DNA of 63,208 nt from a virus (IMGVR_UViG_3300016457_001358:1-63208); one strand, 5' to 3'; shown: positions 1 to 55,187, counted from the stretch's first letter. Numbers and translations are program-made. Notes: generated by a model from the sequence alone, not told the origin.

Positions 1-936
1 AAGAGGATAACTGTTCCAGACGATTTATTAAGACAGGACTTGGGAGACATAAACTCGCTGGTGGAATCCATAAAACGGTGCGGCCTCGACAACCCCATAA
101 CAATCCAGCAGGTCGGCGACAAGATAATATTGCGGAAGGGAAGGCGCAGGCTGGAGGCGTTCAGGCGCATGCGAAAGTCCAAAATACCATACAAGCTTGA
201 GAGTGAGACCAAGAGCGACGAGAGCAGATTAATAGTCCTTATGAAGCAGGCCGCCGAGAACAGGGCGAGGAAGGACTTCACGCCGGCGGAGGATTTGCGG
301 GCGGTTCTGGAATTGACGAAAGAGGCGGTCGAATACATCGACAATGACAGCGATGCGGGGGCATACATCGTGAACCTGCACATGAAATTGTGGAAAAAGG
401 AAAAACTGTATTCAGACGAAAAGAAACTTGTGGACATCCTCAAAGGGGCTGGATACTCGAATTTCAACTTCCTGTCAAAGCTCATGAGACTGCGAAAGCT
501 CAGTAAAAATATCCTCGAAAGGGTTGAATACGGAAACAGCAACACGATTAACGATATTTTTGAAAAGAAGAAAATCTCCTTCGGCCACGCGATAGAGCTG
601 TCGACCCTGAAAGCCGAGAAGCAGGAGATGATGTTCGAGAGAATATTCAAGGAAAAGATGAAAATCGTGCAATTGAGAAAGGAAATCAAAAAAGAAAAGC
701 ACGGGAATGAAAAGCACAAGGTGTGTGGCGCTCGCGGGTATCGCCCGCGGAGAAGCGGGTTAAAGATATTGGAGGAGCAGATGAAGAAAAAGCAGGAGGC
801 GAAAAAAGAGAAAGACGAGAATGAGGATGCAGAAAAAATCATTTTCAGCGAAGGGACGGTGGTCATCTGCCCGCATTGTCTTGAAACTTTCGAGCTCGAT
901 GCCTTCGAGCAGCACGAGTTAAAGGTGAGGGGATGA
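1..936 (+). CDS. ParB-like partition/nuclease-domain protein with C-terminal zinc ribbon; 5' end lies at 63082 across the circular junction
   Basis: ParB box motifs GLDNPITIQQVGDKIILRKGRRRLEAFRRM; C-terminal CPHC..H; frame continuous with 63082..63208. Confidence 0.65.
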   Translation, partial: KRITVPDDLLRQDLGDINSLVESIKRCGLDNPITIQQVGDKIILRKGRRRLEAFRRMRKSKIPYKLESETKSDESRLIVLMKQAAENRARKDFTPAEDLRAVLELTKEAVEYIDNDSDAGAYIVNLHMKLWKKEKLYSDEKKLVDILKGAGYSNFNFLSKLMRLRKLSKNILERVEYGNSNTINDIFEKKKISFGHAIELSTLKAEKQEMMFERIFKEKMKIVQLRKEIKKEKHGNEKHKVCGARGYRPRRSGLKILEEQMKKKQEAKKEKDENEDAEKIIFSEGTVVICPHCLETFELDAFEQHELKVRG

Positions 937-6038: not shown

Positions 6039-6143
6039 TTCTGACCGAAAACTATTTAAATGTTTAAAACAATAAATAAATATCCAGGCGCAGGAGAGAT
6101 TTCAGCAGAGCCCATAATGGCATTGTATCTCTCCTAATTTCCT

Positions 6144-7724
6144 GTGATATTTATGGAATTTGAAAAAGTTATGGAAGATTTTGCAAGAAGCTTTATAGAG
6201 AGAAGAGCTAAAAACGAAAACTTCGATATGTCGGAGCACTCGTTTTATACTCACAGTCCGGAGCAAGATTTTCTATCAGTACTGTTCACGGGATATATTC
6301 AAAATTTTTACTACATGAGTTCTGCCGAAGTTTTCTCCTATTCCGTGCCGTTGCACAAAGAAATCATCAAAAAAGATATTGACTTTTACATTCAAAGTCT
6401 CCATGTCGCCAGAGAAATATCCGCAATGAAAGATCAGGTTTTAATAGGTTTGTTATTGCTGTCCAAATGCGAAATGAGAGACGATCTTTTTGATCTGTTG
6501 GTAGATTTGCTATCAACATTTCCGCCAAACCAGGTGGTTAGAAAGTTCGTCAATACAAAAAGAAAAGACAGATCTCTGTTCGGTGGTTTCGGCTCTTTTG
6601 AAAAAAGATTGATAGCCAAAGTTTTTGAAACATGGAAAGAAAAAGGATTGCTTGACTATTATTTCGCAAAGTATAGAAGATATGTCCAACAATTAGTGAA
6701 CCTTTCGCATATAAAAATCGAAAAAGAATTATTCGGATGGTTGAGTAGCCCGACCCAGTATCAAGGCAAAGAGGGGTATCTGAACAAAATAAAAGAGTTT
6801 TATCGTTCCAAAAATATACATGATCTGCCCGACAAGGCTCCCTTTGAAATAGTGAGAAGCTTCATCAAAAAAGATGATTGGAAGCCCGAGTTGCTGGAAA
6901 AATGCGACATCACGGCCAACACGGTAGTTTTGCAGGCGACAAGCCTTTACTCCGCATTTAAAAATGAGATGCTGCCGTATGTGAAAAGAGCGGTGAACAA
7001 AAAGGTTACCGCAGATAAGATACTCAAAGCCTTGATAATGGCAGAAATAAAAGAGCACCACGAACTGGCCGCGGAATTAGCCAAAGCTTATGCAGAAAAG
7101 GTTAAAACAACATACAAAGATCTGCTATTGCCCTTGGACAACGCAAGCATTTGCGTCGTTCTCGATGCTTCGGGAAGTATGGAACCCGAATCGTTAAGAG
7201 GCATGTTTTTAAAAGGTTTGAGTTGCATCGCGCCGTTTTCTCCGATAATAAAATCGTTAATATTGTTCAGCGATGAAGCGGGAGATGCGGATGTCAGATT
7301 CCTTTCGACGTGGGAAGGTTTATTGAAACTCATGCAACTTGCTGACAATTCATACAATAACTCTACCAACATAGTCGCCGGATTGTCACGCGCACTCGAA
7401 AAAGCCAAACAAAAAGAAATAAACGCGGTTATTTTAGTTACCGATGAGCAGGCAAACGTGGTTTCTTCGAGCGACACCGAAATGGATTTAATTAAAAAAT
7501 TGCTGGATATGGGCATCCAAGTAATCGTAATTAATCCAACGCCGTATCCGGTGAAGATAACGGATATTTCAGACAAGAGGCTCATTTATATTCCTTCTCC
7601 AAATCCCGAAGCATTGAAGGGGGCGCTGAGATTGTCTCAAATTGTAAATGCAAAATTGCAAGCCAAACCGTTGCTTGAAAAAATCGCAAGCGGCGCAAAG
7701 AAAAAGAAGAAAGAAAATGAATAG
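6144..7724 (+). CDS. vWA-domain protein with Ro60-like (TROVE + vWA) architecture
   Basis: C-terminal vWA with MIDAS (VVLDASGSM..NSTN..VTDEQ); ~330 aa helical N-domain with KYRRYVQQLVNLSHIK resembling the Ro60 TROVE segment. Confidence 0.55.
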   Translation: MIFMEFEKVMEDFARSFIERRAKNENFDMSEHSFYTHSPEQDFLSVLFTGYIQNFYYMSSAEVFSYSVPLHKEIIKKDIDFYIQSLHVAREISAMKDQVLIGLLLLSKCEMRDDLFDLLVDLLSTFPPNQVVRKFVNTKRKDRSLFGGFGSFEKRLIAKVFETWKEKGLLDYYFAKYRRYVQQLVNLSHIKIEKELFGWLSSPTQYQGKEGYLNKIKEFYRSKNIHDLPDKAPFEIVRSFIKKDDWKPELLEKCDITANTVVLQATSLYSAFKNEMLPYVKRAVNKKVTADKILKALIMAEIKEHHELAAELAKAYAEKVKTTYKDLLLPLDNASICVVLDASGSMEPESLRGMFLKGLSCIAPFSPIIKSLILFSDEAGDADVRFLSTWEGLLKLMQLADNSYNNSTNIVAGLSRALEKAKQKEINAVILVTDEQANVVSSSDTEMDLIKKLLDMGIQVIVINPTPYPVKITDISDKRLIYIPSPNPEALKGALRLSQIVNAKLQAKPLLEKIASGAKKKKKENE

Positions 7725-7742
7725 AATCAAGGCGCTTGGAGT

Positions 7743-7874
7743 ATGCTAACAACTATTGACATCGAAAGATTGAAAGAACTCAAAAAAATAGCAATTGATA
7801 GGAACATGACTCTGCGGGATCTTGTAAACAAAATCATCAACGATTATTTGGAGCGTGAGCAATATGGCGCGTAA
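7743..7874 (+). CDS. small ribbon-helix-helix-like protein
   Basis: 43 aa hand-delimited ORF; helical DNA-binding-like composition. Confidence 0.3.
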   Translation: MLTTIDIERLKELKKIAIDRNMTLRDLVNKIINDYLEREQYGA

Positions 7875-7968
7875 AAGATGCCCATACTGCAAGGACGGAA
7901 GAATAGTGAGAAGCCATGAAAAGCACATTGCGTTTTGCTCGTTGTGCGGTCACGAGTTCAAGTATTGA
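7864..7968 (+). CDS. zinc-ribbon protein
   Basis: MARKRCPYC...CSLCGH; overlaps previous stop. Confidence 0.35.
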   Translation: MARKRCPYCKDGRIVRSHEKHIAFCSLCGHEFKY

Positions 7969-8105
7969 GAAACCGAGCCAGACATTCACGCACCTCTGAC
8001 GAGTGGGTCGTCCCCGAAAGGGATTACTGCCCGTGAGTCCCATTCAAGCGTTCACCGTATTGACCTCTTTATTTCTGGCTCGGCTCAAAATGCCCATGAG
8101 GTGAT
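7966..8105. ncRNA. candidate structured non-coding element X, copy 1
   Basis: GC-rich island; shares 5' gagaaaccgag and 3' ttggctcggctcaaaatgccc with 53942..54031; GNRA-type hairpin ccc-gaaa-ggg. Confidence 0.25.
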
Positions 8106-8108
8106 ATA

Positions 8109-8234
8109 ATGGCAGAATTTTATGGAAGATGCGAACGTTGCGGAATGGAAGTCGATTGGGACGATATAGCAGGAGAAATAGCGAACGTGGGTTTTGTCTG
8201 TAGATTGTGCTGGGAAGAATTTAGAGAAAGATAG
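8109..8234 (+). CDS. zinc-ribbon protein
   Basis: CERCG...CRLC in a 41 aa ORF. Confidence 0.35.
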   Translation: MAEFYGRCERCGMEVDWDDIAGEIANVGFVCRLCWEEFRER

Positions 8235-8388
8235 GCTCAAAATGCCTCAAACAGCCCGCCCAAGTAGGCTCCAGCCGATTGCGGAGGGACGCCTCCGCCA
8301 GAGGGCGAAAAAAGTCTGCCATTGCCCTCGCAAGAGGTTAAGGGCCTGTCTCCCACAATGGCAGGGGCTTGGGAGAGATGGTGATAAA
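8235..8388. ncRNA. candidate structured non-coding element Y, copy 1
   Basis: GC-rich; inverted repeats ctgccattg/caatggcag and ggaggg-acg-cctcc; homologous to 54017..54180. Confidence 0.2.
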
Positions 8389-8868
8389 ATGAAAGATAGT
8401 GAGTTTAAACCTATTATTGATGAAATTAAAAGACAATATGACCTACAAATGAAAATGGACGATTCTCATGATACTAAAATAGGCATCATGCTTGGTTTTA
8501 TTCTTATTGTTCTTGCCCAAATAACTCTAAGTGAAACGTTTTTAAATGAGATAATAAAAAATCAGATTTCGTTAATTATTTTTACTGTTGGTCTATTGAG
8601 TATATTATGCGCAACTTATTTTGGAATAAGAGCATATTTTATTAGAAAATATAATGTCGGACCGAAAATTTTTGATTTGGTTGAGCAATATAGAAAAGGA
8701 GAAAAAAGAGATTATAATAAAGTAATTTCAAGAAAAATTTACGATGCTTTTGTTGAAAACACCAGCATCTCTCAAAATAAAGCAAACCGTATTAAGAAAA
8801 TGTTTGTTTCGTTTTTTGTAGGGTTTGTGTTGATAACAGTCTCGAAAATTATTTCGATGGTGATTTAA
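8389..8868 (+). CDS. membrane protein
   Basis: ATG at 8389 in frame 8194..8868; several hydrophobic helices. Confidence 0.45.
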   Translation: MKDSEFKPIIDEIKRQYDLQMKMDDSHDTKIGIMLGFILIVLAQITLSETFLNEIIKNQISLIIFTVGLLSILCATYFGIRAYFIRKYNVGPKIFDLVEQYRKGEKRDYNKVISRKIYDAFVENTSISQNKANRIKKMFVSFFVGFVLITVSKIISMVI

Positions 8869-8891
8869 GATGTCAGACAGGATATGGAGAG

Positions 8892-9059
8892 ATGATGAGA
8901 ATGGAATGTTACATTTGCGGAAAAGAAATTGATGAAGCAGCAGAAGAAGGCATAGATTATTGGAAGTGCTATGACGGAAAGTCTGTAATTTACATGAAGT
9001 GTTTTGAAAAACCAGAGGCGGGTAAAAGCGTGTCGAAAAAATCTGCTATTGGTCTCTAA
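8892..9059 (+). CDS. small zinc-binding protein
   Basis: CYICG...CYDG..C. Confidence 0.3.
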   Translation: MMRMECYICGKEIDEAAEEGIDYWKCYDGKSVIYMKCFEKPEAGKSVSKKSAIGL

Positions 9060-9077
9060 CGAGGCTGAGGTGATGGC

Positions 9078-9248
9078 ATGAAATGCCCATACTGCGGAAA
9101 CAGGCTGAAAACTTTATTTTACTATACGACAAAGCCCAAACACAAAAAGAACAACACAAAATTTGCATACTGCGAAAAATGTGATAAAGTCTTCAGAATA
9201 ATTGTTGCGGATACAGAAACAACTGAGAGGGTGAAAGAAAATGAGTGA
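9078..9248 (+). CDS. zinc-ribbon protein
   Basis: MKCPYCG...CEKC. Confidence 0.35.
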   Translation: MKCPYCGNRLKTLFYYTTKPKHKKNNTKFAYCEKCDKVFRIIVADTETTERVKENE

Positions 9249-9537
9249 AGAAAAACCTTTGAAATTGGAAGAATTAATTAAATTGATAGAAGAAGAATTT
9301 ACAGAGAAAATACAAAAGATAGATGCAAATCACGAAATAAGATGGTTATGTATTGATTATTATAGGTGGCAGACAATCAAAGACAAAATCAAACAACAAA
9401 ACAGATTAGCAGTTCAGGGATTGCTTGAGGATATTGATGAAGTAGAATTAAAAAACAAAACTTTGTTAGACTTACATTATGAAATTAGACAAAAAATCAA
9501 AAAATGGTTTCCTGTTGAAGAAGGCGAGAGAAAATGA
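9241..9537 (+). CDS. hypothetical protein
   Basis: 98 aa charged ORF. Confidence 0.4.
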   Translation: MSEEKPLKLEELIKLIEEEFTEKIQKIDANHEIRWLCIDYYRWQTIKDKIKQQNRLAVQGLLEDIDEVELKNKTLLDLHYEIRQKIKKWFPVEEGERK

Positions 9538-9611
9538 TAGGAGATGACCCTTTGATAAGAGATTGGATAGAGAAGATAAAAGAGGATACAAATAAAGGTG
9601 AAAGAAAGTGA
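9534..9611 (+). CDS. mini-ORF (MIGDDPLIRDWIEKI...) with a near-identical copy at 55669
   Basis: ~45 nt identical at 9534..9580 and 55669..55715. Confidence 0.25.
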   Translation: MIGDDPLIRDWIEKIKEDTNKGERK

Positions 9612-9718
9612 GTGAAACCAATATAATCACGAAAAGATGCCCATACTGCGGAAAATTATTCGACTGCTATTATGACATCGGATTTGCGATTCATAAAGCA
9701 TGGTGTAAAAAAAGGTGA
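9608..9718 (+). CDS. zinc-ribbon protein (GTG start)
   Basis: KRCPYCG..C..C; same motif family as 7864 and 9078. Confidence 0.25.
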   Translation: MSETNIITKRCPYCGKLFDCYYDIGFAIHKAWCKKR

Positions 9719-9725
9719 AAAGAAA

Positions 9726-10001
9726 ATGAGCGAAAAGAAAACACTCAAATTCGTTCACACAGCCTTTTGCTTAGAAATTCTCACAGAGCTCTTAAAAAAT
9801 GATTCGGTGCATTTCAAGATTGTGAATCCGCTTCCCAAAGATGCGAAGTTTTTCGATTTGAAATACGATTCTTCGACAAGAACCCTTCATCTATTCTTCA
9901 CGTCAGAAAAAGGCTACGAGCGAAAGGAGGGAGAGCTTCTTTCCTCAGTTCCAGTCACGGATATTTTATTCAAAACGGTGAAAAGCCATGAATTTAGATA
10001 A
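9726..10001 (+). CDS. hypothetical protein
   Basis: ATG at 9726 in frame 9672..10001 preceded by aaggtga. Confidence 0.4.
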   Translation: MSEKKTLKFVHTAFCLEILTELLKNDSVHFKIVNPLPKDAKFFDLKYDSSTRTLHLFFTSEKGYERKEGELLSSVPVTDILFKTVKSHEFR

Positions 10002-10164
10002 ACTTGTCGAAATGTGTTTTTTCATAGGGCTTCTCAGCCTTTTGTTATTCGTTGTCGGGGCATTGCTTTCGTCCGAGACGCTGGCGCTCCTTTTCTTTTG
10101 CCTGTTCATTTTCGCGACGGCGGTCGAAGTGGTGCTGATGATTTTCATCACCGCTACGAATTGA
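9988..10164 (+). CDS. small membrane protein (paralogue at 56291)
   Basis: 58 aa, two TM-like segments; ~200 nt similar to 56288..56490. Confidence 0.4.
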   Translation: MNLDKLVEMCFFIGLLSLLLFVVGALLSSETLALLFFCLFIFATAVEVVLMIFITATN

Positions 10165-10184
10165 GATGCTGAAGGCGAGAGAAA

Positions 10185-10382
10185 ATGAGTGAAAAACCGA
10201 AAGGCATAGCTTGCTTGTTTTGCGGAAAAGAGGTTTGGACGACCGACCCAAGCAAAAGCCCGGACGAATTGGCGAAGCAATACAAGTGGTGGAAAGTCAA
10301 GATTTCCAACGAAACCGACTCGTTTTCCGGCTATTGTTGCCGGGATTGTTTCAAAAAATTCGATACTGACTTACTGACTTAA
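10185..10382 (+). CDS. zinc-binding protein
   Basis: CLFCG...CCRDC. Confidence 0.4.
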   Translation: MSEKPKGIACLFCGKEVWTTDPSKSPDELAKQYKWWKVKISNETDSFSGYCCRDCFKKFDTDLLT

Positions 10383-11607: not shown

Positions 11608-13449
11608 TTAATGCGTATGACCAGCATCTACCGGGCTATGCTGATGACTTGCGGCATTGCCTTCGAGGGCTGGCGATACTTCCGACTCTGATGGGCTATG
11701 CTGATGACTTGCGGCATTGCCTTCGAGATTTGGCGCATTCGGAGTAGCAGACACATTAGCACTAGCATCTTCAGCTGTATTTGTATCAATATCGTGTGTA
11801 TGTCCCGTACTCCACCATGTTTTCAGATGATAGTTAAAGTCAGCGGTTCCTGTTCCGGTATATCTACATCTTAAATACAAAGTTTCTCCTTCGCTAGGTT
11901 TCATTGAAGATATTTCTTTCCAAATTGCTGTTGTACCCATATTGTCAAGGAATATCTTTCTAGTACCCAGTCCATAAGAGTAACTTTCAAGCTTGTATTC
12001 AAAATATTCAGGAGATGGGCATGAAGTAATAACAATCTCTACTTCGTGTACCAGTATTGTACTTCTTCTTTTTTGGTTTTCAGAATAACCGGATGTATCA
12101 ACAGTATAGCTCGCGATATCTGTCCAGTCACTTCCTAAACCTGAATATGATCCATCTGATGTGTGGTTAGTGTCAGTCATCCATGAATCTCCTTTTATAT
12201 TTGTCGTCGTTGCTGATACTGTATGGCTATGGGTAGATGTATAGGATGAATGATCGTGACTTGCGGCATTGCCTTCGAGGGCTGGTGATACTTCCGACTC
12301 TGATGGGCTATGCTGATGACTTGCGGCATTGCCTTCGAGGGCTGGCGCTATATCTGATTCCGATACATCGGCAGTCCCGGTGTCGGTTCCGTGTTTGTAG
12401 CTTCCCAAATCCTGTAACTGCTCCTCGTTTCTCGCCAACTTGTCCAAGAATGTCGTTACTCTGTTCGATAGCTCCAGCTCCAGCCTGTTGGGTTTGGTCG
12501 CGTTCAAAATCACCCTCTTTTTGACTATTTTATATTCACCCGACATGCCGCTTCTCGTATCGTTGACCGTCACATCGTCGCCGACCGAAAATGTATAATC
12601 CGTTTCGACCGGCAATATGGAGATTCTGTAAAAAGGCTTTGGCGTGCCGTCCGGATATGTTCCCTCGTATCCGCTGTAAGTATCCAAAATCTGGTCGGCG
12701 AGCCTTTGGGCCGATGTCACATCGGCGATCGTCCTGTCTATGAATATCGCTTCCTTGGTGATCCCGTAATAACTTTGCGAATCGGTATTCTCTCTCCAGC
12801 CGGAATCGATTTGCTGCGTTCCGTCGCCCATGCCCAGCACCTTCACCTTGTTTATCAATGCTTCTCTATCCACCATTTTTTTGATATCCCAGCAGTTTGC
12901 AAGGCTGCCTCCCGTGTTGAATGTGGCTTGAGACGTGTCGTTTCCCACTCTTTCGGCTATATTGAACTGGTCGTTGTCGCTGGCGTCTTGATTCACTTTC
13001 CATTCGTAACCTATTTGCCTCGCCAGCTTAGCCAGTCCCAGCAACCTGGATTCATGGACGCTGAAATCGACATTCCCGTAGTTCGTGTTCGTTCCGACAT
13101 TGATTACTCCGCTGCACAGATCGGATACTATGGTGCTCGTTGCCGTGGCGGACCACGATCCATCGTAGGTTTTTTCGAGCAATTTGACGCTCATATCGTA
13201 GCCGTAGCATTTGACGATGCCGGTATCGCTGTACTGGGGCTTCTCCAGCCTGCCTTTGAACACGGTCGTCGAATTGAGCTGAAATTTAACTATATTGCCC
13301 GCTTGAACATTTGGATCGTCGTGATCTATGTCAAACAGTTCCAGCTCAAATGTGAAAGGTTCGTTGAGCTTCTCCGTGAACTCGGCTTTCAAGTAGTTAT
13401 CCGAATAGTCAACGCCGTTTATCAACAATGTCCATGTCAATTTGATCAC
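11608..13449 (-). CDS. tail/baseplate-associated protein with internal peptide repeats
   Basis: 613 aa downstream of tape-measure-like gene; four copies of PALEGNAASHQHSP from 60-nt tandem repeats. Confidence 0.5.
   Translation of the reverse strand: MIKLTWTLLINGVDYSDNYLKAEFTEKLNEPFTFELELFDIDHDDPNVQAGNIVKFQLNSTTVFKGRLEKPQYSDTGIVKCYGYDMSVKLLEKTYDGSWSATATSTIVSDLCSGVINVGTNTNYGNVDFSVHESRLLGLAKLARQIGYEWKVNQDASDNDQFNIAERVGNDTSQATFNTGGSLANCWDIKKMVDREALINKVKVLGMGDGTQQIDSGWRENTDSQSYYGITKEAIFIDRTIADVTSAQRLADQILDTYSGYEGTYPDGTPKPFYRISILPVETDYTFSVGDDVTVNDTRSGMSGEYKIVKKRVILNATKPNRLELELSNRVTTFLDKLARNEEQLQDLGSYKHGTDTGTADVSESDIAPALEGNAASHQHSPSESEVSPALEGNAASHDHSSYTSTHSHTVSATTTNIKGDSWMTDTNHTSDGSYSGLGSDWTDIASYTVDTSGYSENQKRRSTILVHEVEIVITSCPSPEYFEYKLESYSYGLGTRKIFLDNMGTTAIWKEISSMKPSEGETLYLRCRYTGTGTADFNYHLKTWWSTGHTHDIDTNTAEDASANVSATPNAPNLEGNAASHQHSPSESEVSPALEGNAASHQHSPVDAGHTH
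11633..11727. repeat. 60-nt tandem coding repeat, two units
   Basis: gggctatgctgatgacttgcggcattgccttcgag repeated. Confidence 0.8.
12250..12350. repeat. second pair of the same ~60-nt coding repeat
   Basis: gacttgcggcattgccttcgagggctgg occurs twice. Confidence 0.8.
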
Positions 13450-27267: not shown

Positions 27268-30200
27268 TCAAATGAGTTTGAGAATCTTTTGATACCGATA
27301 CACGGTGTTTTTTGACAGTCCAGTCGCCAGACTGATGCTTCTTCTGGATTCGTTTTTTGCCGTGAGCTCGATTATCTGCTTCAATATTTTGCCCGTAACC
27401 TTCACGGGCTGACCGGCTTTTTTGATTTTGTCGAAAAGCATGATCCACGTTTGAGGCCCGATGTGCGCGATGTGGAATGAATACTCGCCCGTCATATCGA
27501 TCAGCTTCTTTGGCGGTTTAACCAGCACTGGAGCTCCCTCTTTTTTCGCCATTTGCAAAGGCTTCAGGTTAACATCGCCCTTGTCCGATCTGAACTCTAT
27601 TCTTATTTTGTGATCGGTCACTTCGTGGATGGTGTACACGCCTCTGGAAATTATGATAAAGACCCCGGGATAGCGCGTTTTAGCCGTGCCGATCTTATGC
27701 GTGACCCCGTCGAAGAACAGCCAGTCCACCGGCTCCGTCAGCTTGATCGTTCCTCTGACATGCGAACTGTCGGCATAGTTCGATTCTTCCACCGTTGCGG
27801 GAGTGAACAGCGTTATCCCTTCGAGGCAACCCTTGAGTTTGCCTTTTTTGAACAATGCCAGCGCGTCATCGTAGGTCAAGACTTTGCAAGTTACTTCGTC
27901 GGGAACAAACAACCTGACATCCCGGTGCGTTTTTCGCCCTATGCTGTGCAGGTGGATGACATAAGGCATCCACAGATTGTTGTTCATGATTTTTTTGAAA
28001 TTTCTCTGCATTCTCTCCGGGAAGTCCCTGATTATTTTGACTTCTTTGGCTTCCTCCGGCTCTTTTTTCAACTCTTCGTGCTTCACCGCAACGCCGATCG
28101 CGGTGACTATGTCCTCGAGTTCGTCTATTGTCGAAGTTTCCTTTTTTTCCGTAATATGATTGACCCTTGGCTTGTGAATCGAGTACCACCTGCCTTTGTC
28201 CGATTCGTGCCTCCAAACCTCTTCGACCAAAATGCTCAGTATGGCTCCCTCTTCGTATTTTTCGGATGTGTTGAACGTTTTGCCGAGAACCAGCACCTTT
28301 TTTCCTTTGAAATCGGTTATCTTGTCGGGGTTGATGCCGGCGTCCTTTTCCCTCAGATAGACTCCCACGAGATAGTTGTAAAGATTCTTTTCCTTGGGAA
28401 TTCGGTCCAGTATCACCACATCTATATCGACGAGGTTGCGAAATTTCAGCCACGACTTATGCTCTCCGAAATGATACTTTGCCGACAGGTCTTTGATCAC
28501 GGCCCCTTCCGAGTAAGGCAGATTCTTTGCCCACTCTATCGCCTTTCTGACTTCATCGACCCCTTTCGCAAACTTTCTCTGAATGAGCAAGGTTCTGGGA
28601 CCGAAGTTCAATTTATTCAAATATTTGATGCGCTCGTGTAAGCTCAGGTTCGTGATATCATTATCGAAGTAAACGATGTCCCATATAAATATCTTAATGT
28701 TTTTGTCGTCCACCTTTTTTCCGCTTTCGATCGCTCCTATGAATTTCATCAATGTGTTTCTTCCGAGCTGCTTGCCGTCGTCGAAAGGAACTATCTCGCC
28801 GTCCACTATGAAATTAGCATCGCTCATCTTCGATATCGCATCGCACAGAGTCGGAAACGCAAACGTCAGCTCTTTTTTTTGCTCTGAAAATATCTTCACT
28901 TCGCTTCCCTTTTTGTGGCAGCACACGTGAAATCCGTTTATCTTTTTCTCTACGGAGTATTCGATATCATTCCTGATCTTTGCCATTATGTCATCGATTT
29001 TGTAATAAGCCGAGCCCAGCGGTTTTTGAGGAAGATAAGGCTCGAACAGCCGAACCGAATCTCCGAGAATTATTTCGTTCATTTCCACTATTTTGGTCGG
29101 TTTGATGCGCTCCAGTTTCAAATCGTAAAGCGGAATGAATGAGTCGTGGCTGCCCTCCGCATCTCCCCATATCATGTGAATCTTCGGTATCAACTCGGCG
29201 TAGCCGTTTTCTTCGAGCATTTTCAGCAGCCTGACTTCGATCGCCCTTCTTATATACGAGTTCTTCTCCGCTCGCAATCTGATTTGCAAGTCCACATCGT
29301 TCGGTATGTGACCCTTTGGTCTTTTCACGGTAGAACCGACCAGAGAAATGCAGTCCTTGACTATTTTGAAGTCCTTGAATGCGTCCAGAAAATCGAGATT
29401 CGTCAAATCAACTTTCTTGTGTATCATCTCCTTTTCTCCGGTTATTCGCTTATACAGATCCAATGACCATTTCTTGTAGGTTTCCGGGTGAAACTCAATG
29501 CCCCTTTTCTTGAGCTCCTCGTATATCATTTTGGCGAGATTGACGAGAGTTTCTTCCGAATACGGTGTTTTCTCTCCTCTTTTCAGCTTGCTGTAATGGG
29601 CGCACACCAGTCTGTAATCGTCCTTCAAAACATCCGTGCTCAACTTTTTGGGATCATACGTCTCCGGGTTCTGTATCAAATTCGCTTCGACGTTCTGGAA
29701 CTCAAATTTTTCCAACACGCTTTCGATTTTTTCGGCGAGCGAATCCCACCAGCTTTCCCAACCTTTCTCGCCGTACCACACTTTGCCCGCAACGACCACT
29801 CTTGGTCTGTTCTCGGCGCCGATGTCGCATTTGGAATACAAGCCGTCCTGCTTGTCCAGCTCTTTGCTGATATCTTCGGCTTTGTCATCGTCGGCCGGGT
29901 TCGCCATCCTGAACACTATGAAGGCGACCCTCTCGGGCGACTTTCCCTCGTCGCTCGCCCTTATCTCTATCTCCTTGATCCCGTTCAGTTGCTCGAGCCA
30001 CTCGTCCTTTATATGAACATCGATATCGTTGAAACCGTTCCACGACTTCTTCGGACCGTCCGTGCGGCCGCTCAACCAGCCTCCCGGCGGCAATTTGTTG
30101 TATACCGCGTAGTATGCGAATGTGGGCGAATTCATTTTCGGCGTGTAATCCGCATTCAAAAATTCGATATCCTTCACGAATGTTTGCGTGCCTTTTTTAA

Positions 30201-32106: not shown

Positions 32107-33380
32107 TCGCGATCTCCATGAATTTTGGGCATGCCCTCTATCTCCCTGATGTAATCCTCGGTTTCCGGATTGGGAGTTATCAAACCATGCTTCGCGCATC
32201 TCGCTATTCTCTCCATCTTCGAATCGAGCTCCTCCAGAGAAATCTCCCCCCACTGTATTTTCACGGGCGGAACGCGGTTAACCTGGGAAATCCTTCTTAT
32301 CACTTTGGATTCGAGAACTCCCACCGTTCTCTCTATTATGTCCTTGAGCCTTATCTTGAAAATGTACTCCTGCCTGTTGAGAGTGGATCGGTTGGTCGTT
32401 TCTCCGAGCCCCGTCGCGAACGCTTTGGGTATGCCCATGCCGGTGATCATGACATCCATCCAGTAGTCGAGAAAGTTTCTTATTTTGGCGGACTGCCTCG
32501 ATTCCAGCAGACCGATCTTCAACCAGCTGGGATGGGAGAACGCGGTCAGGCTGTTGATGTCCTTCAGCTGCTCCGCAACCTTGGTTATCTGCTCCGGCGT
32601 GGCATCGTGAGTTTCGTCGCCCACCGACGCGTCGATCAGCGGAAAGCCGACCCTGTAGCTGGCGTTGGCGAAACCGTCCTCGACCGCCAGCTGCCTGAGA
32701 TACGACTTGTAAATCGGCTCGATCAATCCGATTCCGTAGAAGCCGTCCCCGACCTCGTACAGCTTGAAATGGGCGACCCTTTCCGGTGGCAGAAATATCT
32801 TGTTGCCCTGCAAAGAAACCTGGGGCGGGGGAGCGATTTTGTTGTTCACCCTTTCCATCGACGGAACCGACTGCGTGTATCCGACCGGGTTCCCGTAATC
32901 ATCCAGAGCGATTCTGTCCGAGCTGTCCTTCGCGTAGTCGAACCTTTTCGGATCTATGATGTCCAGATCGACTATCGCGCTCTTTTTCAAGCTCCCCTTC
33001 TCGATCGTGCCGTAGATTATCTCCCAAGGGCAGAACCCGTAGATGAACTGGTACTGAAATGTTTTTGTGAGAATGTTCCGCCAGTTCGTTTCTCCGCCCG
33101 TGTATCCGACATTGTCGAAAAACTCCGAAAAGTATTCGACGGCCTCTTTGCTGCCCTTCAAAGAGTACCCGGCGCTCATGATGATCTGGGTCAGCACGTT
33201 GATCGAGTTGTGTATTATTCCGTTTTTCGTGTAGCATTGCTCGAGCTCCTTCAGCTGGCCGGGAACCATCCTTTCCAATTCCGGCGTCGCTTTCTTGGCG
33301 ACGGGGACCGGCGAAATCTTCGAAACGGCCGAAGCCAGATTGAAGGACCTTCTGCCTCCGAACAAATCCGACAGCAGCAT
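32103..33380 (-). CDS. putative portal protein
   Basis: 425 aa immediately downstream of terminase large subunit; position and size only. Confidence 0.5.
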   Translation of the reverse strand: MLLSDLFGGRRSFNLASAVSKISPVPVAKKATPELERMVPGQLKELEQCYTKNGIIHNSINVLTQIIMSAGYSLKGSKEAVEYFSEFFDNVGYTGGETNWRNILTKTFQYQFIYGFCPWEIIYGTIEKGSLKKSAIVDLDIIDPKRFDYAKDSSDRIALDDYGNPVGYTQSVPSMERVNNKIAPPPQVSLQGNKIFLPPERVAHFKLYEVGDGFYGIGLIEPIYKSYLRQLAVEDGFANASYRVGFPLIDASVGDETHDATPEQITKVAEQLKDINSLTAFSHPSWLKIGLLESRQSAKIRNFLDYWMDVMITGMGIPKAFATGLGETTNRSTLNRQEYIFKIRLKDIIERTVGVLESKVIRRISQVNRVPPVKIQWGEISLEELDSKMERIARCAKHGLITPNPETEDYIREIEGMPKIHGDRE

Positions 33381-36174: not shown

Positions 36175-36894
36175 TCAAATATACATTTTTGCTAATGCTT
36201 GTATTTTCTGCATATCAATATGCTTTATTGTTGTTTGTGTTCTGTTTCTGTTTGTTTGTGTTTTCTGTTGTTTCTGATAAACAAATTTGTATATGTAAAA
36301 TATCTTTTGTCTCTGTAATTTCGCTATCTTCTCTCTCATCCATGCTAATAATATTTTTCTTCTTCTCTCATATTCTCTGTATTCTGTTATGCTCATATTC
36401 ATTTCTTTTGCTTCTGTGTGTTCTGTTATTCTTCTATGCTTCATTATTATGTTTCTAATATCAAAGAGATAATTGCTATTCAATTCATCGATCAATTTTT
36501 TTATTTCTCTGTTTATTCTGTTTATTCTTGATATTCTTGATTTGTAATTGTATATTGTTCTTATGTCATTATTTTTCTTCATTTCTTTTATTGTCGCATT
36601 TATTTGCTTGATTCTATGTAATGCTAATGTATAAATTCTGTCTGATGTTGTTGTTTTTTTTGCGATTTTTTGGCATTCTCGTCTTTCTTTCAATAATTGA
36701 TAATATTTGTTGTTTTGCTCTAAATCTCTTAATAATGTTGCTCTTATGTCTATGATTTCTTTATATTTTTCTGTTATCTCTATTATTCTTTTTGCTATTA
36801 ATAAATTTCTGTAATCTCTTGACATTCCATATCTGTTTTTTGCTGTTTCTTTTATTTCTCCAATTAACTCCTGATATGTTGCCATATTCATCAA
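36175..36894 (-). CDS. hypothetical K/R/I/N-rich protein in AT-rich island
   Basis: 239 aa; purine-rich coding strand; composition unlike the rest of the replicon. Confidence 0.3.
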   Translation of the reverse strand: MMNMATYQELIGEIKETAKNRYGMSRDYRNLLIAKRIIEITEKYKEIIDIRATLLRDLEQNNKYYQLLKERRECQKIAKKTTTSDRIYTLALHRIKQINATIKEMKKNNDIRTIYNYKSRISRINRINREIKKLIDELNSNYLFDIRNIIMKHRRITEHTEAKEMNMSITEYREYERRRKILLAWMREKIAKLQRQKIFYIYKFVYQKQQKTQTNRNRTQTTIKHIDMQKIQALAKMYI

Positions 36895-37140
36895 ATATTA
36901 TTATGCATTATGTATATAAAAAGATTATTGCCATTCTTTTATCATTATATAATATAAGCATCCAAAAATCTTAATTTGTTTCTCCAAAATATAAATTCTA
37001 ATCGCCAAATTGTAAAATATGAGATCAAATCGCTATTTATGATGGACCTGATTATAATCGCTATGATGCAACAAATATATTGATGAATATAATTGATGTA
37101 TGCTATTTTTACAATATATATAGAAACAATAAAAAGAGTG

Positions 37141-37350: not shown

Positions 37351-37359
37351 TTGCGGGTT

Positions 37360-51640: not shown

Positions 51641-52543
51641 TTGAGTGTGATTTCTATGGCGATAGCGGGCAGACGATATTACCAGCAACTGATCAGAGGC
51701 GTTGAATACCTAATCAGGGGAGATTTCAACAGCCTCTGGGTCCTGGGTCCGGGCGGAATCGGAAAATCTATGGTGATCGACAGCGTTTTGGACGAAAACA
51801 AATTGAAAGAGGGCAGAGACTACACCATATTCAGGGGAAACATATCCGATGCTTATTTGTATGAGTTCATCTATAACAACAGGGACAGGATTATAATTTT
51901 CAGGGATGTTGCCAAACTGATACGCAGGTTGAACACGATCGACACGTTCAAAAGTTTGACCGAGGAAAGGGGCAGAAGGATCATCAGCAACAAAACTTAC
52001 GCCGAGCACGATGTCCCGGACACATTCGAATTCACCGGAAGGATCATTTTTGAAATCAACGACATCATGAAGAAATACGAAGCGGATCTGAAGGCGCTGT
52101 TCAGCAGGGGATTGTTCGTTGAAATAATACTCTCCTACGATGACATCAAAAACATTATGTACGAAAGATGCGACACCGAAGTCAAAAAGCAGATAACAAA
52201 AATGCTGATAAGCAACTTCAACTACCTTGGAAGGAGCGGGTTCAATCTGCGAACCCAAAATATATGTTTCAAAATATACGAGGCGTGCATCCGGGACAAA
52301 AAAGACTGGAAGCGGGAGATCGACATGTTTCTCAAAAGTCAGATGAGCGAGCCCAGAAAACTGCTGTACGAATGCGCCGGGTTCAAGCCGGTCAAGCGGA
52401 TGGATTTCGTCAAATTCTTGATGAGCCGGAAGGGATACTCTTATTCAAGTTGCCAGAGAAGAATCAAGGACTATCTCATAATGGGAGAGATATTCAGCAA
52501 CGGTTTGAAAAAGCAGTCCCTCTTGAAATTGACCCCGTTTTGA
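51641..52543 (+). CDS. P-loop NTPase
   Basis: Walker A GPGGIGKS; Walker B-like RIIIFRDV. Confidence 0.55.
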   Translation: MSVISMAIAGRRYYQQLIRGVEYLIRGDFNSLWVLGPGGIGKSMVIDSVLDENKLKEGRDYTIFRGNISDAYLYEFIYNNRDRIIIFRDVAKLIRRLNTIDTFKSLTEERGRRIISNKTYAEHDVPDTFEFTGRIIFEINDIMKKYEADLKALFSRGLFVEIILSYDDIKNIMYERCDTEVKKQITKMLISNFNYLGRSGFNLRTQNICFKIYEACIRDKKDWKREIDMFLKSQMSEPRKLLYECAGFKPVKRMDFVKFLMSRKGYSYSSCQRRIKDYLIMGEIFSNGLKKQSLLKLTPF

Positions 52544-52614
52544 GCAATCGAATCTCTGAATTCGAGCATGGAAAAATGGGTCAAATGTATCAAATATTCG
52601 CATACAATATCTCG

Positions 52615-53301
52615 ATGATTGCTATGGAATACGAGATTGGAATAGACGAAACGGCAAGGTGCCCGTGCTTGGGTCCGCTGTATATACTGGGGTTGATGGC
52701 CCCGAAAACCAAATTGAAAGAGATGCAAAAGCATCTGGTGATAAAGGATTCCAAAATCACCACCTCGGCACAAAGAGAAAGGGCGTTCAACTGCGTCATA
52801 GATGATTCGGATTTCACGGTCAAATTGATTGAAATATGGCCGCCGGTGATAGACATGGCAGTAACTCGCCAGATGAAATGGAATTTGAACGACTTGGAAG
52901 CCATATTTTTTGCCAAAATAATATTATCTATGTTATCTATGTTGGATAAAAAAAGCGCGGCGGTTTATGTCAATAACTTTGAGAGAAAAAGATCGCAGTT
53001 AATTGAAAGATGGAAGCGAATAGGTTGCTGGGAATCGCTCAAAGATGCGGAGATCCACATCACGCACAGATACAACGCCGTTGTCGGACTCGCGTCGATG
53101 CTGTGCAAGTACATCGAGGACGCGGAAACATGGTTGTGGAAAAATGTTGTTTACGGGTTTGACTTTGGTTCAAAGAATCCAAACGATGCCAAAACCCAAG
53201 AATTCGTGAGAAAGCGCCCCGACAGCCAACTTATCCGCAGAAATTGGGGCACCGTCGTGCCTCGGATTTTGTTTGCCGGAAGATTCGGCGCAAAGTATTA
53301 A
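52615..53301 (+). CDS. rnhB: ribonuclease HII
   Basis: GIDETARCPCLGPL; KDSKITTSAQRERAF; ASMLCKYIED; start at ATG inside frame 52168..53301. Confidence 0.75.
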   Translation: MIAMEYEIGIDETARCPCLGPLYILGLMAPKTKLKEMQKHLVIKDSKITTSAQRERAFNCVIDDSDFTVKLIEIWPPVIDMAVTRQMKWNLNDLEAIFFAKIILSMLSMLDKKSAAVYVNNFERKRSQLIERWKRIGCWESLKDAEIHITHRYNAVVGLASMLCKYIEDAETWLWKNVVYGFDFGSKNPNDAKTQEFVRKRPDSQLIRRNWGTVVPRILFAGRFGAKY

Positions 53302-53941: not shown

Positions 53942-54180
53942 TGAGAAACCGAGTCAAATATCCATCTACAAGCGGGAAAGTCCTAGCCTCTCACCTACAT
54001 CACCTTTTCTTGCTTGGCTCGGCTCAAAATGCCCTAAACAGTTCGCCATAGAGTATGCGGGTTCGATTCCCGCTGCAAAGGAATGGTGACCACTATGGCG
54101 AATCGCGGCGATCTCCTGCTTCCTGCCGGACGCGCCAGAGAAGCTCGCCGCGAGGCTGGGGGAGAGAAGTAAAGCCGGTG
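53942..54180. ncRNA. candidate structured non-coding element (X+Y fused copy) with tRNA T-arm-like hairpin
   Basis: GC-rich island; gcggg-ttcgatt-cccgc hairpin; 8-bp stem cgcggcga/tcgccgcg; homologous to 7966..8105 and 8235..8388. Confidence 0.3.
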
Positions 54181-54185
54181 GTTAT

Positions 54186-54782: not shown

Positions 54783-55031
54783 TTGCTATTCTGCTATCAG
54801 ACAATCAACTTCGCAAGATTCGTAAAGAGAAAAGAGGAAGATTACATATTGATTTTGAACCTGCTGTGGAATGAGCCGCACCGCAGAGGCTGCATGGGGA
54901 AGATGATAAAAATGGAAGGCGAAATATTAGACATTAAACAGTTCGGTAAATATCTCATAATCTCTTATAAGGGGGCATGGGGGATTTCATTTCAACAAAT
55001 CAGGCTCGATGACGGAAAGCTCAAAAAATGA
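54783..55031 (+). CDS. hypothetical protein
   Basis: 82 aa ORF. Confidence 0.3.
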   Translation: MLFCYQTINFARFVKRKEEDYILILNLLWNEPHRRGCMGKMIKMEGEILDIKQFGKYLIISYKGAWGISFQQIRLDDGKLKK

Positions 55032-55034
55032 CAT

Positions 55035-55185
55035 GCGTGGGTAGTCTAAGGCAGGACGCCCCAAAGCGATGCCGTGAGGGTGGCAGGGGAGTGCGAGCGT
55101 CGTGTTAGTGGGGCGATGCGGGTGAAAATCCCGCCCCGCGCTTGGTGATGAGAAATGACCGCGCTCAACTGGCCGAGGTGAGGAG
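55035..55185. ncRNA. candidate structured RNA in GC-rich island
   Basis: Much higher GC than flanks; hairpin gcggg-tgaaaat-cccgc; no convincing ORF on either strand. Confidence 0.2.
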
Positions 55186-55187
55186 AA

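What the first reader, a model, noticed from the sequence alone, without database searches (positions are those of the whole stretch)
6144..8390. Ro60-like TROVE/vWA protein followed by GC-rich structured non-coding elements
6144..7724 has a C-terminal vWA domain with an intact MIDAS motif and a ~330 aa helical N-domain including KYRRYVQQLVNLSHIK, which resembles the conserved TROVE segment of Ro60; length and order match Ro60/Rsr. Within 250 nt downstream lie two GC-rich islands (7966..8105, 8235..8388) in an otherwise AT-richer small-gene region; their ends (gagaaaccgagcc ... ggctcggctc) can pair, and they recur far away at 53942..54180. Ro60 proteins bind Y RNAs typically encoded next to the gene, so these are candidate Y-RNA-like partners. 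This is a hypothesis from sequence inspection only.
Basis: partly seen in the sequence, partly recalled or inferred. Interest (0 to 1): 0.75.

Follow-up and report, generated by a model that had tools for sequence, protein, structure and literature searches.

The report
Archaeal-virus Ro60 protein with upstream Y-like RNA
A tailed virus that probably infects archaea encodes a very divergent copy of the RNA-quality-control protein Ro60. Its likely partner RNA is a previously undescribed, conserved stem-loop just upstream of the gene, not the GC-rich islands downstream that were first flagged.

Summary

The RNA call is misplaced. The downstream islands are real, but only their 13-21 nt ends recur at 53.9 kb, as part of a patchy segmental duplication. 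They match no Rfam family and do not occur in any non-identical related locus. Each sits directly before a ribosome-binding site and an ORF.

The conserved element is a ~60-nt stem-loop at 6085..6145, which I call R1. It starts about 28 nt after a BRE/TATA box and ends 7 nt before the ATG. A covariance model finds 42 copies in 33 loci, and 40 of them lie within 450 nt of the homologous gene. Most are upstream on the same strand, but some are on the opposite strand, downstream or in tandem. Covariation is strong: 94% of cells paired against 53-68% in slid controls.

In four relatives the apical loop carries a tRNA-like module, as in bacterial YrlA. The best reading is a Ro60/Y-RNA-like RNP of archaeal viruses. 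Binding was not tested.

The parts
6047..6061 (+). Archaeal-type BRE/TATA promoter (GAAAACTATTTAAAT) in front of the R1 RNA; predicted transcription start about 6081-6086
   Evidence: The same kind of box (AAAnnTTTAAATA / TTTATATA) sits 22-35 nt before the first R1 unit in nearly all related loci. The 40-mer 6042-6081 recurs at 60963-61002 (83% identity), about 12 nt before an ATG. The start site is inferred, not measured.
6085..6145 (+). R1: conserved structured RNA, the candidate Y-RNA-like partner. P1 6085-6088/6141-6144. Internal loop CGC 6089-6091 / AAUUU 6136-6140. P2 6092-6100/6127-6135. Invariant UUCAGC 6101-6106. Variable apical hairpin 6105-6126.
   Evidence: Covariance model R1: 54.2 bits, E 4e-13, and the only copy in the window even with filters off. 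Covariation of P1/P2. MFE fold -23.9 kcal/mol, z -3.7. No Rfam match.
6153..7724 (+). Ro60-like protein gene (523 aa from ATG 6153; the mechanical ORF starts at GTG 6144). The hhalign-aligned span, residues 34-490 in 526-aa numbering, is 6243-7613. I divide it by eye into a TROVE/HEAT-repeat ring (about 6243-7133) and a Ro60-type vWA domain (about 7146-7613).
7164..7445 (+). MIDAS residues of the vWA domain: D341-x-S343-x-S345 (7164-7178), T408 (7365-7367), D434 (7443-7445)
   Evidence: All five are invariant in 31 homologues. Weak VWA_CoxE/VWA Pfam hits cover the same region.
7966..8095 (+). Island A1: intergenic element closed by a 13-bp stem with an AAA bulge. It lies between a 33-aa Zn-ribbon ORF (stop at 7964) and a 41-aa Zn-ribbon ORF (8109-8234, preceded by GAGGTGAT).
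   Evidence: Not conserved in relatives. Function unresolved.
8234..8388 (+). Island B1: GC-rich (0.57) intergenic stretch that starts with GGCTCAAAATGCCTCAAACAG and ends in GGGAGAGATGGTGAT just before ATG 8389
   Evidence: Probably a structured 5' leader or small RNA; not linked to the Ro60-like gene in relatives.
53942..54034 (+). Island A2: paralogue of A1. It has the same closing stem, with one compensatory and one wobble change, and an unrelated interior.
   Evidence: (D18).
54021..54185 (+). Island B2: paralogue of B1. It contains a tRNA T-arm-like hairpin GCGGG-UUCGAUU-CCCGC (54057-54073) inside a 10-bp stem (TTCGCCATAG/CTATGGCGAA) and is followed by GGTGG + GTG 54186.
   Evidence: ARAGORN and Rfam do not call it a tRNA.
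55018..55187 (+). Island B3: a third GC-rich intergenic island. It is preceded by GGCTCG..GCTCAAAAAATGAC, contains GCGGG-UGAAAAU-CCCGC, and is followed by GAGGTGAGGAG + GTG 55188.

Best explanation
The window is the complete genome (63,117 bp plus a 91-bp terminal overlap) of a tailed virus that probably infects archaea.

Gene 6153..7724 encodes a highly divergent Ro60: a TROVE/HEAT-repeat ring closed by a vWA domain with an intact MIDAS site.

Its most likely RNA partner is R1 (6085..6145), a roughly 60-nt RNA transcribed from a BRE/TATA promoter. The 5' and 3' ends of R1 pair into a bipartite stem:
- P1;
- an internal loop, 5'-CGC / AAUUU-3', next to an invariant GG(C/U)G;
- P2;
- an invariant UUCAGC bulge;
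- a variable apical module on top.

By analogy with bacterial and phage Y RNAs, the conserved stem and loop would dock the Ro60-like ring. The apical module would act as a gate or tether for host factors. In four related viruses that module is expanded into a tRNA-like cloverleaf with a T-arm and a closed acceptor-like hairpin.

In this virus R1 is also the 5' end of the Ro60-like mRNA, with the ATG 7 nt after it and no Shine-Dalgarno sequence. It is therefore either cut off, leaving a near-leaderless mRNA, or it also mediates autoregulation.

Shown: homology and fold of the protein; conservation, covariation, position and promoter context of R1.
Inferred: protein-RNA binding, processing and effector recruitment.

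The downstream GC-rich islands are separate, genome-specific elements. They are most likely structured leaders of paralogous small-gene cassettes.
For: Protein:
- AF2 model with pLDDT 87.5.
- The top 10 Foldseek PDB hits are all full-length Ro60/TROVE, E 1e-9 to 3e-11.
- The family profile retrieves proteins that Pfam calls TROVE + vWA_Ro60.
- hhalign gives 99.9%, E 1.5e-35 over 417 columns.
- MIDAS residues are invariant.

R1:
- 42 covariance-model hits in 33 loci. 40 lie within 450 nt of the gene. This holds down to about 33% protein identity.
- There are no hits in 89.5 kb of unrelated viral DNA that carries the 5' motif.
- 92.6% and 94.2% of cells are paired, against 53-68% when partners are slid. 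The covariation score is 0.63 against 0.08-0.26. 10 of 13 pairs show compensatory changes.
- MFE folds of single copies give the same P1/P2 structure, with z from -3.3 to -4.4.
- Copies occur on the opposite strand (L023, L027, L038/39), downstream (L027, L051), separated from the gene by another ORF (L032/33) and in tandem (L011, L035, L028, L029, L018, L020). This argues for an RNA gene rather than an obligate leader.
- A BRE/TATA box lies 22-35 nt upstream, and T-tracts follow the stand-alone copies.
- Four loci carry tRNA-like inserts, with sub-threshold tRNA (27.8 bits) and mascRNA (27.9 bits) hits and a cloverleaf MFE.

Precedent: Y RNAs are encoded next to Ro60. They carry the binding site in a stem formed by the 5' and 3' ends, and they mimic tRNA (PMC4201824; 10.1101/312249). 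Phage phiLo has two Y-like RNAs upstream of its Ro60 gene (PMC12135203).
Against: - No binding, expression or processing data exist.
- R1 matches no Rfam Y_RNA or YrlA model.
- The bacterial 5' motif GNCGAAN0-1G is present in full in only 1 of 40 aligned copies. Only GG(C/U)G is shared.
- The invariant UUCAGC has no counterpart in described Y RNAs.
- In the window and 16 other copies, R1 ends 3-11 nt before the start codon on the same strand. A purely cis-acting leader is therefore possible.
- In L026 a weaker R1-like copy with the same promoter heads a different operon.
- The window's own R1 has only a small hairpin as its apical module and no tRNA-like domain.
- The host is not identified. 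The archaeal assignment rests on promoter motifs, a PCNA gene and the source names of two homologues.
Confidence: 0.65

Rival explanations
1. R1 is only a cis-acting 5' leader of the Ro60-like mRNA. It would be an operator for autoregulation, or a stability or translation element, and not a separate trans-acting RNA.
For: In the window and in L007-L010, L018b, L020b, L022, L024, L030, L034, L036 and L043, R1 ends 3-11 nt before the start codon, on the same strand. The only recognisable promoter there lies in front of R1. In L026 an R1-like copy with an identical promoter precedes a different operon.
Against: Copies lie on the opposite strand (L023, L027, L038/39), downstream of the gene (L027, L051), 400 nt away behind another ORF (L032/33), or in tandem arrays of two or three with tRNA-like inserts. 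In L013 a T-tract and a second TATA box lie between R1 and the gene. A leader role and a released RNA are not mutually exclusive: M. smegmatis Y RNAs are processed from a precursor upstream of rsr (PMC4201824).
Confidence: 0.2
2. One reading: the downstream GC-rich islands (7966..8105, 8235..8388) and their copies at 53942..54185 are the Y-RNA-like partners of the Ro60-like protein.
For: A1 and A2 are closed by a conserved 13-bp bulged stem formed by their ends, with one compensatory change. B2 contains a good T-arm mimic inside a 10-bp stem, an order reminiscent of YrlA (stem, variable region, T-arm). The conserved ends with unrelated interiors suggest selection on the ends.
Against: Nothing similar occurs in any of the 47 related loci. 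The 76-77% identical relatives have different genes and no GC-rich island downstream. The islands do not match the R1 model, even with filters off, or any Rfam family. B1, B2 and B3 share no convincing fold. Copies 2 and 3 lie 46 kb from the gene, or about 15 kb the other way round the circle. Every island directly precedes a Shine-Dalgarno sequence and an ORF. Fold z-scores are modest.
Confidence: 0.1
3. The islands A1/B1, A2/B2 and B3 are structured 5' untranslated leaders, or promoter/operator modules, of paralogous small-gene cassettes. They are unrelated to Ro60. The shared motif GGCTC(GGCTC)AAAATGCC would be a common transcription-start or regulator-binding signal.
For: The recurrences are colinear with a patchy duplication of 8.0-10.2 kb and 54.0-56.5 kb. 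The motif occurs three times exactly and once in a variant form, each time at the 5' edge of an island. T-rich TATA-like tracts lie 20-27 nt before it in A1 and A2 (D18). Each island ends in an SD-like GGTGAT/GGTGG/GAGGTGA plus a start codon.
Against: No transcription data exist. The TATA-like tracts are weaker than the clear BRE/TATA in front of R1. This reading does not explain the T-arm mimic in B2 or the conserved closing stem of A.
Confidence: 0.45
4. The protein is a generic vWA/CoxE-type protein with an unrelated helical N-domain, not an RNA-binding Ro60.
For: On its own the sequence hits only VWA_CoxE/VWA, below Pfam cut-offs, and no TROVE family. A family-profile search of PDB sequences finds only vWA domains.
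Against: Full-length structural matches to three independent Ro60 structures score far above vWA-only matches. Profile-profile homology to TROVE-positive proteins extends through the N-domain.
Confidence: 0.03

Closest known systems
Bacterial Ro60 (Rsr) with Y RNAs Yrn1/YrlA (Deinococcus, Salmonella, Mycobacterium and mycobacteriophages)
   Same: Both have a ring-shaped TROVE + vWA protein. A small RNA is encoded next to the gene, usually upstream on the same strand, and often in several copies made from one precursor. The RNA is closed by a stem formed by its 5' and 3' ends, with a conserved bulge or loop near the 5' end that begins GNCG. The apical module is variable and can mimic tRNA, with a T-arm followed by a closed acceptor-like hairpin (PMC4201824; 10.1101/312249).
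   Different: Protein identity to solved Ro60 structures is 13-17%, and there is no direct Pfam TROVE hit. R1 matches no Rfam Y RNA or YrlA model. The full GNCGAAN0-1G motif is absent in 39 of 40 copies. R1 has its own invariant UUCAGC and a 3' AAUU(U)CC loop. In relatives the tRNA-like module is opened at the D-loop side, whereas YrlA is opened at the anticodon stem. Promoters are archaeal BRE/TATA.
Thermus phage phiLo Ro60 with Yrl1/Yrl2 (PDB 9KOP, 9L5Y; PMC12135203)
   Different: It is a bacterial virus. The phiLo RNAs were picked by the CGAA motif, which R1 mostly lacks. phiLo is proposed to use host PNPase, which archaea lack (established knowledge: archaea have an exosome instead). Binding is shown for phiLo and untested here.
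Ro60/TROVE proteins reported in the Asgard-archaeal virus 'Nidhogg' and in Borg elements
   Same: Both are archaeal mobile elements from sediments that encode a TROVE + vWA protein. Nidhogg also carries an RNA ligase, an ATP-dependent DNA ligase and a D12 methyltransferase, as this genome does (10.1101/2021.07.29.454249; PMC11208441).
   Different: Those reports annotate only the protein and describe no partner RNA. I could not establish whether this window is one of those viruses. I saw no PolB-sized ORF, which the Nidhogg viruses are reported to encode.

Membership tests
Ro60 / TROVE protein family | TROVE domain recognised by the Pfam model (PF05731) on the protein itself | tested here: not met
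   Pfam lists only VWA_CoxE (18.7 bits), DUF7951, VWA and ATPase_2, all below their cut-offs. NCBIfam gives nothing relevant.
Ro60 / TROVE protein family | Sequence homology to TROVE + Ro60-vWA proteins over the whole length | tested here: met
   The family profile finds 312 proteins at E <= 0.001. Of 14 distant hits, 13 carry Pfam TROVE and all 14 carry vWA_Ro60. hhalign of A1 against A7 gives 99.9%, E 1.5e-35, 417 columns, residues 34-490.
Ro60 / TROVE protein family | HEAT-repeat fold joined to a vWA domain, superposing on solved Ro60 structures over most of its length | tested here: met
Ro60 / TROVE protein family | Intact MIDAS motif in the vWA domain | tested here: met
   D341, S343, S345, T408 and D434 are invariant in 31 homologues.
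Ro60 / TROVE protein family | Binds Y RNA and misfolded RNAs | not testable with these tools
   This needs EMSA, RIP or a structure.
Y RNA (applied to R1, 6085..6145) | Bound by the Ro60 protein | not testable with these tools
   There is only genomic linkage: 40 of 42 copies lie within 450 nt of the gene.
Y RNA (applied to R1, 6085..6145) | Long stem formed by pairing of the 5' and 3' ends, interrupted by a conserved bulge or internal loop | tested here: met
   P1 (4 bp), loop and P2 (9 bp). 92.6-94.2% of cells are paired, against 53-68% in slid controls. 10 of 13 pairs show compensatory changes. MFE folds agree.
Y RNA (applied to R1, 6085..6145) | Encoded next to the Ro60 gene | tested here: met
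   In the window it lies 7 nt upstream. In related loci it lies 3-420 nt upstream, or 57-109 nt downstream in two loci.
Y RNA (applied to R1, 6085..6145) | 5'-strand recognition motif GNCGAAN0-1G (bacteria) or GGUCCGA (animals) | tested here: not met
   The full motif occurs in 1 of 40 aligned copies. Only GG(C/U)G is shared, in 36 of 40.
Y RNA (applied to R1, 6085..6145) | Match to the Rfam Y RNA or YrlA covariance models | tested here: not met
   No hit at gathering thresholds, nor at E <= 5 over the whole window.
YrlA-type Y RNA (tRNA mimic) | Apical module with a T-arm, a closed acceptor-like stem and D-arm features | tested here: inconclusive
   The window's R1 has only a small hairpin. 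In L011, L035, L028 and L029 an R1 unit carries a T-arm (UUCGAAU or UUCGACU loop) followed by a 9-14-bp closed hairpin (my reading of the sequences). Sub-threshold hits were found: tRNA 27.8 bits against a cut-off of 29, and mascRNA 27.9 bits. The topology differs from YrlA.
Y RNA (applied to the downstream islands A/B) | Conserved association with the Ro60 gene and a conserved structure | tested here: not met
   There is no counterpart in 47 related loci. B1-B3 share no fold. A1 and A2 share a closing stem, but only two copies exist.

The most novel reading that the evidence does not exclude
R1 defines the first Y-RNA class of the archaeal domain. In this reading, a viral Ro60 ring docks on the GG(C/U)G / UUCAGC / AAUUUCC stem. 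The exchangeable apical module, in some viruses a D-loop-permuted tRNA mimic, recruits host tRNA-handling or RNA-decay machinery such as the archaeal exosome, RNase P or the CCA-adding enzyme. Together with the virus's own T4-type RNA ligase and tRNA, this could repair or remodel RNAs cleaved by host defences. R1 would also be released from the 5' end of the Ro60 mRNA, coupling RNA and protein production.
Probability: 0.35. Interest if true: 0.8.

Novelty: new variant of a known kind. Interest (0 to 1): 0.7.

Why it matters
Ro60-Y RNA particles are known in animals, in about 5% of bacteria and in some phages. In archaeal elements only the protein has been noted, and no partner RNA has been described in the papers I could search.

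A covarying RNA family is tied to a Ro60 clade that Pfam does not recognise. It has its own invariant motifs and, in some members, an independently built tRNA mimic. This gives a concrete, testable handle on three questions:
- what Ro60 recognises in its RNA partners;
- why tRNA mimicry keeps arising in these RNAs;
- what viruses use the system for.

It also shows that structure and profile searches recover Ro60 homologues that ordinary annotation misses. The R1 model can be used to find more of them.

Tried and rejected
- Direct sequence searches of the protein (Pfam, NCBIfam, PDB phmmer, and a family profile against PDB) gave only weak vWA hits and a spurious Cas1 match.
- Rfam found only tRNA-Met, at gathering thresholds and at E <= 5-10, on the window and on both island loci. 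The snoRNA, ffh and plastid hits are chance-level.
- Hammerhead idea for A1: CUGACGAG ... CGAAA is present, but by eye the obligatory A15.1-U16.1 pair is A·A, and Rfam gives no hammerhead hit. Rejected.
- B2 as a tRNA or tRNA fragment: neither ARAGORN nor Rfam calls it, and the flanks do not form anticodon or acceptor stems. Only the T-arm is tRNA-like.
- A/B as members of the R1 family: no hit even with filters off.
- A/B in other genomes:
  - blastn and motif scans of 47 related loci were negative.
  - tblastn of 11 flanking small proteins was negative.
  - IMG/VR had no match to the B 5' motif.
  - The GTDB genome scan gave 7 bacterial hits. About 4 are expected by chance (my arithmetic), so I treat them as chance.
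- A common fold for B1/B2/B3 was not convincing.
- Relatives of the virus in IMG/VR or GenBank phages:
  - The Ro60-like family was not found.
  - The RNase HII-domain protein (52168..53301) had no relatives.
  - The terminase has only three IMG/VR relatives and distant Bacteroides phage hits. The host therefore stays unassigned.
- R1 5' motif in IMG/VR: 13 pattern hits, none of which is an R1 unit.
- MAFFT/RNAalifold on the four tRNA-like units misaligned the T-arm, so I relied on single-sequence folds and manual parsing.
Full report
**Setting.** The window is a complete viral genome.
- Its first 91 bases repeat exactly at 63118-63208.
- It encodes a large terminase, a Mu-like portal and tail proteins.
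- It also encodes PCNA, RNase HII, a T4-type RNA ligase, and a 1661-aa fusion of a metallo-beta-lactamase, a Dam methylase and an ATP-dependent DNA ligase.
- One tRNA-Met is present.
- Identical copies of the focal protein occur on hydrothermal-sediment metagenome contigs.
- An archaeal host is inferred, not shown. The evidence is the BRE/TATA boxes, the PCNA gene and two homologues that their sources name as Altiarchaeales and Thermoprotei.

**The observation.**
- ORF 6144..7724 is real. Homologues and the identical database protein start at ATG 6153.
- The two GC-rich islands exist (GC 0.52 and 0.57, against 0.38-0.42 locally).
- The quoted ends pair, but only within island 1.
- At 53.9 kb only the ends recur. 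There is a 13-mer, an exact 20-mer and a 21-nt motif, and the interiors are unrelated.
- These recurrences are colinear with a patchy duplication of 8.0-10.2 kb and 54.0-56.5 kb.
- A third island of the same style lies at 55032..55187.

**The protein.**
- Taken alone, the sequence gives only sub-threshold vWA hits and no TROVE hit. A profile of 31 homologues against PDB sequences also finds only vWA domains.
- An AlphaFold model built on that alignment is confident (pLDDT 87.5, pTM 0.82).
- Its ten best Foldseek matches in the PDB are all Ro60/TROVE structures aligned over 510-544 columns. The Thermus phage phiLo Ro60 comes first.
- An exhaustive profile search finds 312 relatives. Distant ones carry Pfam TROVE and vWA_Ro60.
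- Profile-profile alignment between the two groups gives 99.9% probability, E 1.5e-35, over residues 34-490.
- The MIDAS residues are invariant.

The protein is therefore a true, very divergent Ro60 homologue.

**The islands as partners.** I fetched 47 loci that encode homologues at 32-77% identity.
- None contains anything resembling the islands, by blastn or by motif.
- The small proteins that flank the islands have no homologues in those loci.
- The closest relatives have no GC-rich island after the gene.
- Rfam has no match.
- B1, B2 and B3 share no convincing fold.
- A1 and A2 share a 13-bp bulged closing stem with one compensatory change, but two copies cannot carry a covariation argument.
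- B2 does hold a good T-arm mimic (GCGGG-UUCGAUU-CCCGC) inside a 10-bp stem. By my arithmetic this is unlikely by chance.
- Every island ends in a Shine-Dalgarno-like sequence and a start codon.

I conclude that the islands are real, genome-specific elements. Most likely they are structured leaders or promoter-proximal modules of paralogous small-gene cassettes. Their position after the Ro60-like gene is not a conserved feature.

**What is conserved with the gene.** Scanning the related loci for tRNA-like T-arms turned up several just upstream of the gene that ARAGORN does not call as tRNAs.
- Around them lies a repeated unit: 5'-(G/C)AGG-CGC(U)-[8-10 nt]-UUCAGC ... [complement]-AAUU(U)-CCU(C/G)-3'.
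- The window has one such unit at 6085..6145: CAGGCGCAGGAGAGAUUUCAGCAGAGCCCAUAAUGGCAUUGUAUCUCUCCUAAUUUCCUGU.
- In a 20-sequence alignment, 92.6% of cells in the two helices are paired, against 53-66% when partners are slid. The covariation score is 0.632 against 0.16-0.26. Ten of 13 pairs show double changes.
- A covariance model built on this alignment finds 42 copies in 33 of the 48 sources searched. The window's copy scores 54.2 bits, E 4e-13.
- With filters off there is no second copy in the window, and the islands do not score.
- On the 42 hits, pairing is 94.2% and the covariation score 0.627. This alignment is fitted to the model, so it leans that way.
- Single-sequence folds independently give P1, the loop and P2, with z from -3.3 to -4.4.
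- UUCAGC is invariant in 39 of 40 distinct copies. MFE folds mostly leave UUC(A) unpaired and pair the GC into the apical helix.
- Thirteen unrelated IMG/VR stretches that contain the 5' motif give no model hit.

**Position and transcription of R1.**
- Forty of the 42 copies lie within 450 nt of the gene.
- Most are upstream on the same strand, 3-420 nt away. L023 and L038/39 are divergent, L027 is downstream and convergent, and L051 is downstream on the same strand.
- L011, L035 and L029 have three copies. L017, L018, L020, L026 and L028 have two.
- Most loci without a hit lack upstream sequence. By eye, L045 and L047 carry variants.
- A BRE/TATA box lies 22-35 nt before the first unit almost everywhere. 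Stand-alone units are followed by T-tracts. In L013 a second TATA box lies between the unit and the gene.
- In the window the box is GAAAACTATTTAAAT at 6047-6061. Its 40-nt context recurs at 60963-61002, in front of another gene.
- The window's R1 ends 7 nt before the ATG, with no Shine-Dalgarno sequence. R1 is therefore the 5' end of the mRNA. Whether it is cut off is not known.
- In L026 a weaker copy with the same promoter heads a different operon. This keeps a cis-acting role in play.

**tRNA-like modules.** In L011, L035, L028 and L029, one R1 unit carries a small 7-nt-loop hairpin in place of the simple apical hairpin. A T-arm (UUCGAAU or UUCGACU loop) follows, and then immediately a 9-14-bp closed hairpin.
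- L035 folds into a clean cloverleaf by MFE.
- Rfam scores L011 4706-4768 at 27.8 bits against the tRNA model (cut-off 29). It scores a separate mini-element, L035 4839-4885, at 27.9 bits against mascRNA.
- The order of a T-arm followed by a closed acceptor-like stem is that of YrlA (PMC4201824; 10.1101/312249). By my parsing, however, the cloverleaf here is opened on the D-loop side rather than at the anticodon stem.

**Comparison with what is known.** All characterised Y RNAs have a stem formed by the 5' and 3' ends that holds the Ro60 site. They are encoded near the gene, and in bacteria they often mimic tRNA (PMC4201824; 10.1101/312249). Phage phiLo has two Y-like RNAs upstream of its Ro60 gene (PMC12135203).
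- R1 shares the placement, the bipartite end-stem with a conserved loop, the modular apical region and, in relatives, the tRNA mimicry.
- R1 fails the sequence-level criteria. The full GNCGAAN0-1G motif occurs in 1 of 40 copies, and there is no Rfam Y RNA or YrlA match.
- I therefore file R1 as something that looks and probably works like a Y RNA, not as a member of the described families.
- Ro60/TROVE proteins have been noted in the Asgard virus Nidhogg and in Borgs, without any partner RNA.
- Searches of the held literature found no archaeal or archaeal-virus Y RNA.

**Verdict.**
- The protein is a Ro60 homologue (about 0.95).
- R1 is a conserved structured RNA genetically tied to the gene (about 0.95).
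- R1 is the protein's RNA partner in a Y-RNA-like particle (about 0.65, inferred).
- The downstream islands are that partner (about 0.1).
- This is a new variant of a known kind of system.

Noticed in passing
window 1-91 and 63118-63208: An exact 91-nt repeat sits at both ends. The contig is therefore a circular or terminally redundant complete genome of 63,117 bp.
   Followed up: partly
window 36200-38100: A very AT-rich stretch (GC 0.24-0.34) with many T-tract repeats. It lies exactly where gene orientation and GC skew switch sign, so it may be a replication origin or a divergent promoter region.
   Followed up: no
window 27268-32253 (-): A single 1661-aa ORF fuses a metallo-beta-lactamase-fold nuclease, a D12 (Dam-type) adenine methyltransferase and an ATP-dependent DNA ligase domain.
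   Followed up: no
window 39700-40746 (+) and 54491-54564 (+): A T4 Rnl1-type RNA ligase gene and a tRNA-Met(CAT) gene occur in the same genome as the Ro60-like gene. This toolkit is reminiscent of RNA-repair and counter-defence systems.
   Followed up: no
window 42132-44562 (+): Three adjacent genes encode Amidoligase_2, class-II glutamine amidotransferase and RimK-like ATP-grasp domains. This could be a peptide-ligation or modification cassette.
   Followed up: no
window 8000-10200 versus 54000-56500: There is a patchy, colinear duplication of a block of small genes: 9526-9583 matches 55655-55712 at 97%, and 9975-10187 matches 56278-56491 at 86%. The recurring island ends belong to it.
   Followed up: partly
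window 55018-55187: A third GC-rich intergenic island. It is preceded by a variant of the GGCTCGGCTCAAAATGCC motif and contains GCGGG-UGAAAAU-CCCGC, the same stem as the T-arm mimic of island B2.
   Followed up: partly
window 7863-7964 and 8109-8234: Two tiny Zn-ribbon ORFs (33 and 41 aa, CxxC...CxxC) flank island A1. The stop codon of the first lies in the first bases of the A1 stem. Several more Zn-ribbon mini-ORFs lie between 5.7 and 10.5 kb.
   Followed up: no
window 60963-61002: An 83% copy of the promoter-like 40-mer that precedes R1. Here it lies about 12 nt before an ATG at 61013, which suggests a near-leaderless gene under the same promoter type.
   Followed up: partly
L011 4826-4890 and L035 4835-4890: Between two R1 units lies a free-standing mini tRNA-like element with an acceptor stem, a small D-like hairpin and a T-arm but no anticodon arm. 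It scores sub-threshold against the mascRNA model.
   Followed up: partly
L026 2991-3062: A weaker R1-like unit with a promoter identical to that of the unit before the Ro60-like gene. It heads a different operon (a 316-aa protein and a 252-aa protein), which hints that R1-type leaders may control more than one gene.
   Followed up: partly
L017 127-777: About 650 nt of GC-rich sequence lies between two R1 units, with no convincing ORF. It could hold further non-coding RNAs.
   Followed up: no
window 11638-12408 (-): About 60-nt repeats at 93% identity lie inside the tail-protein gene 11608-13449.
   Followed up: no
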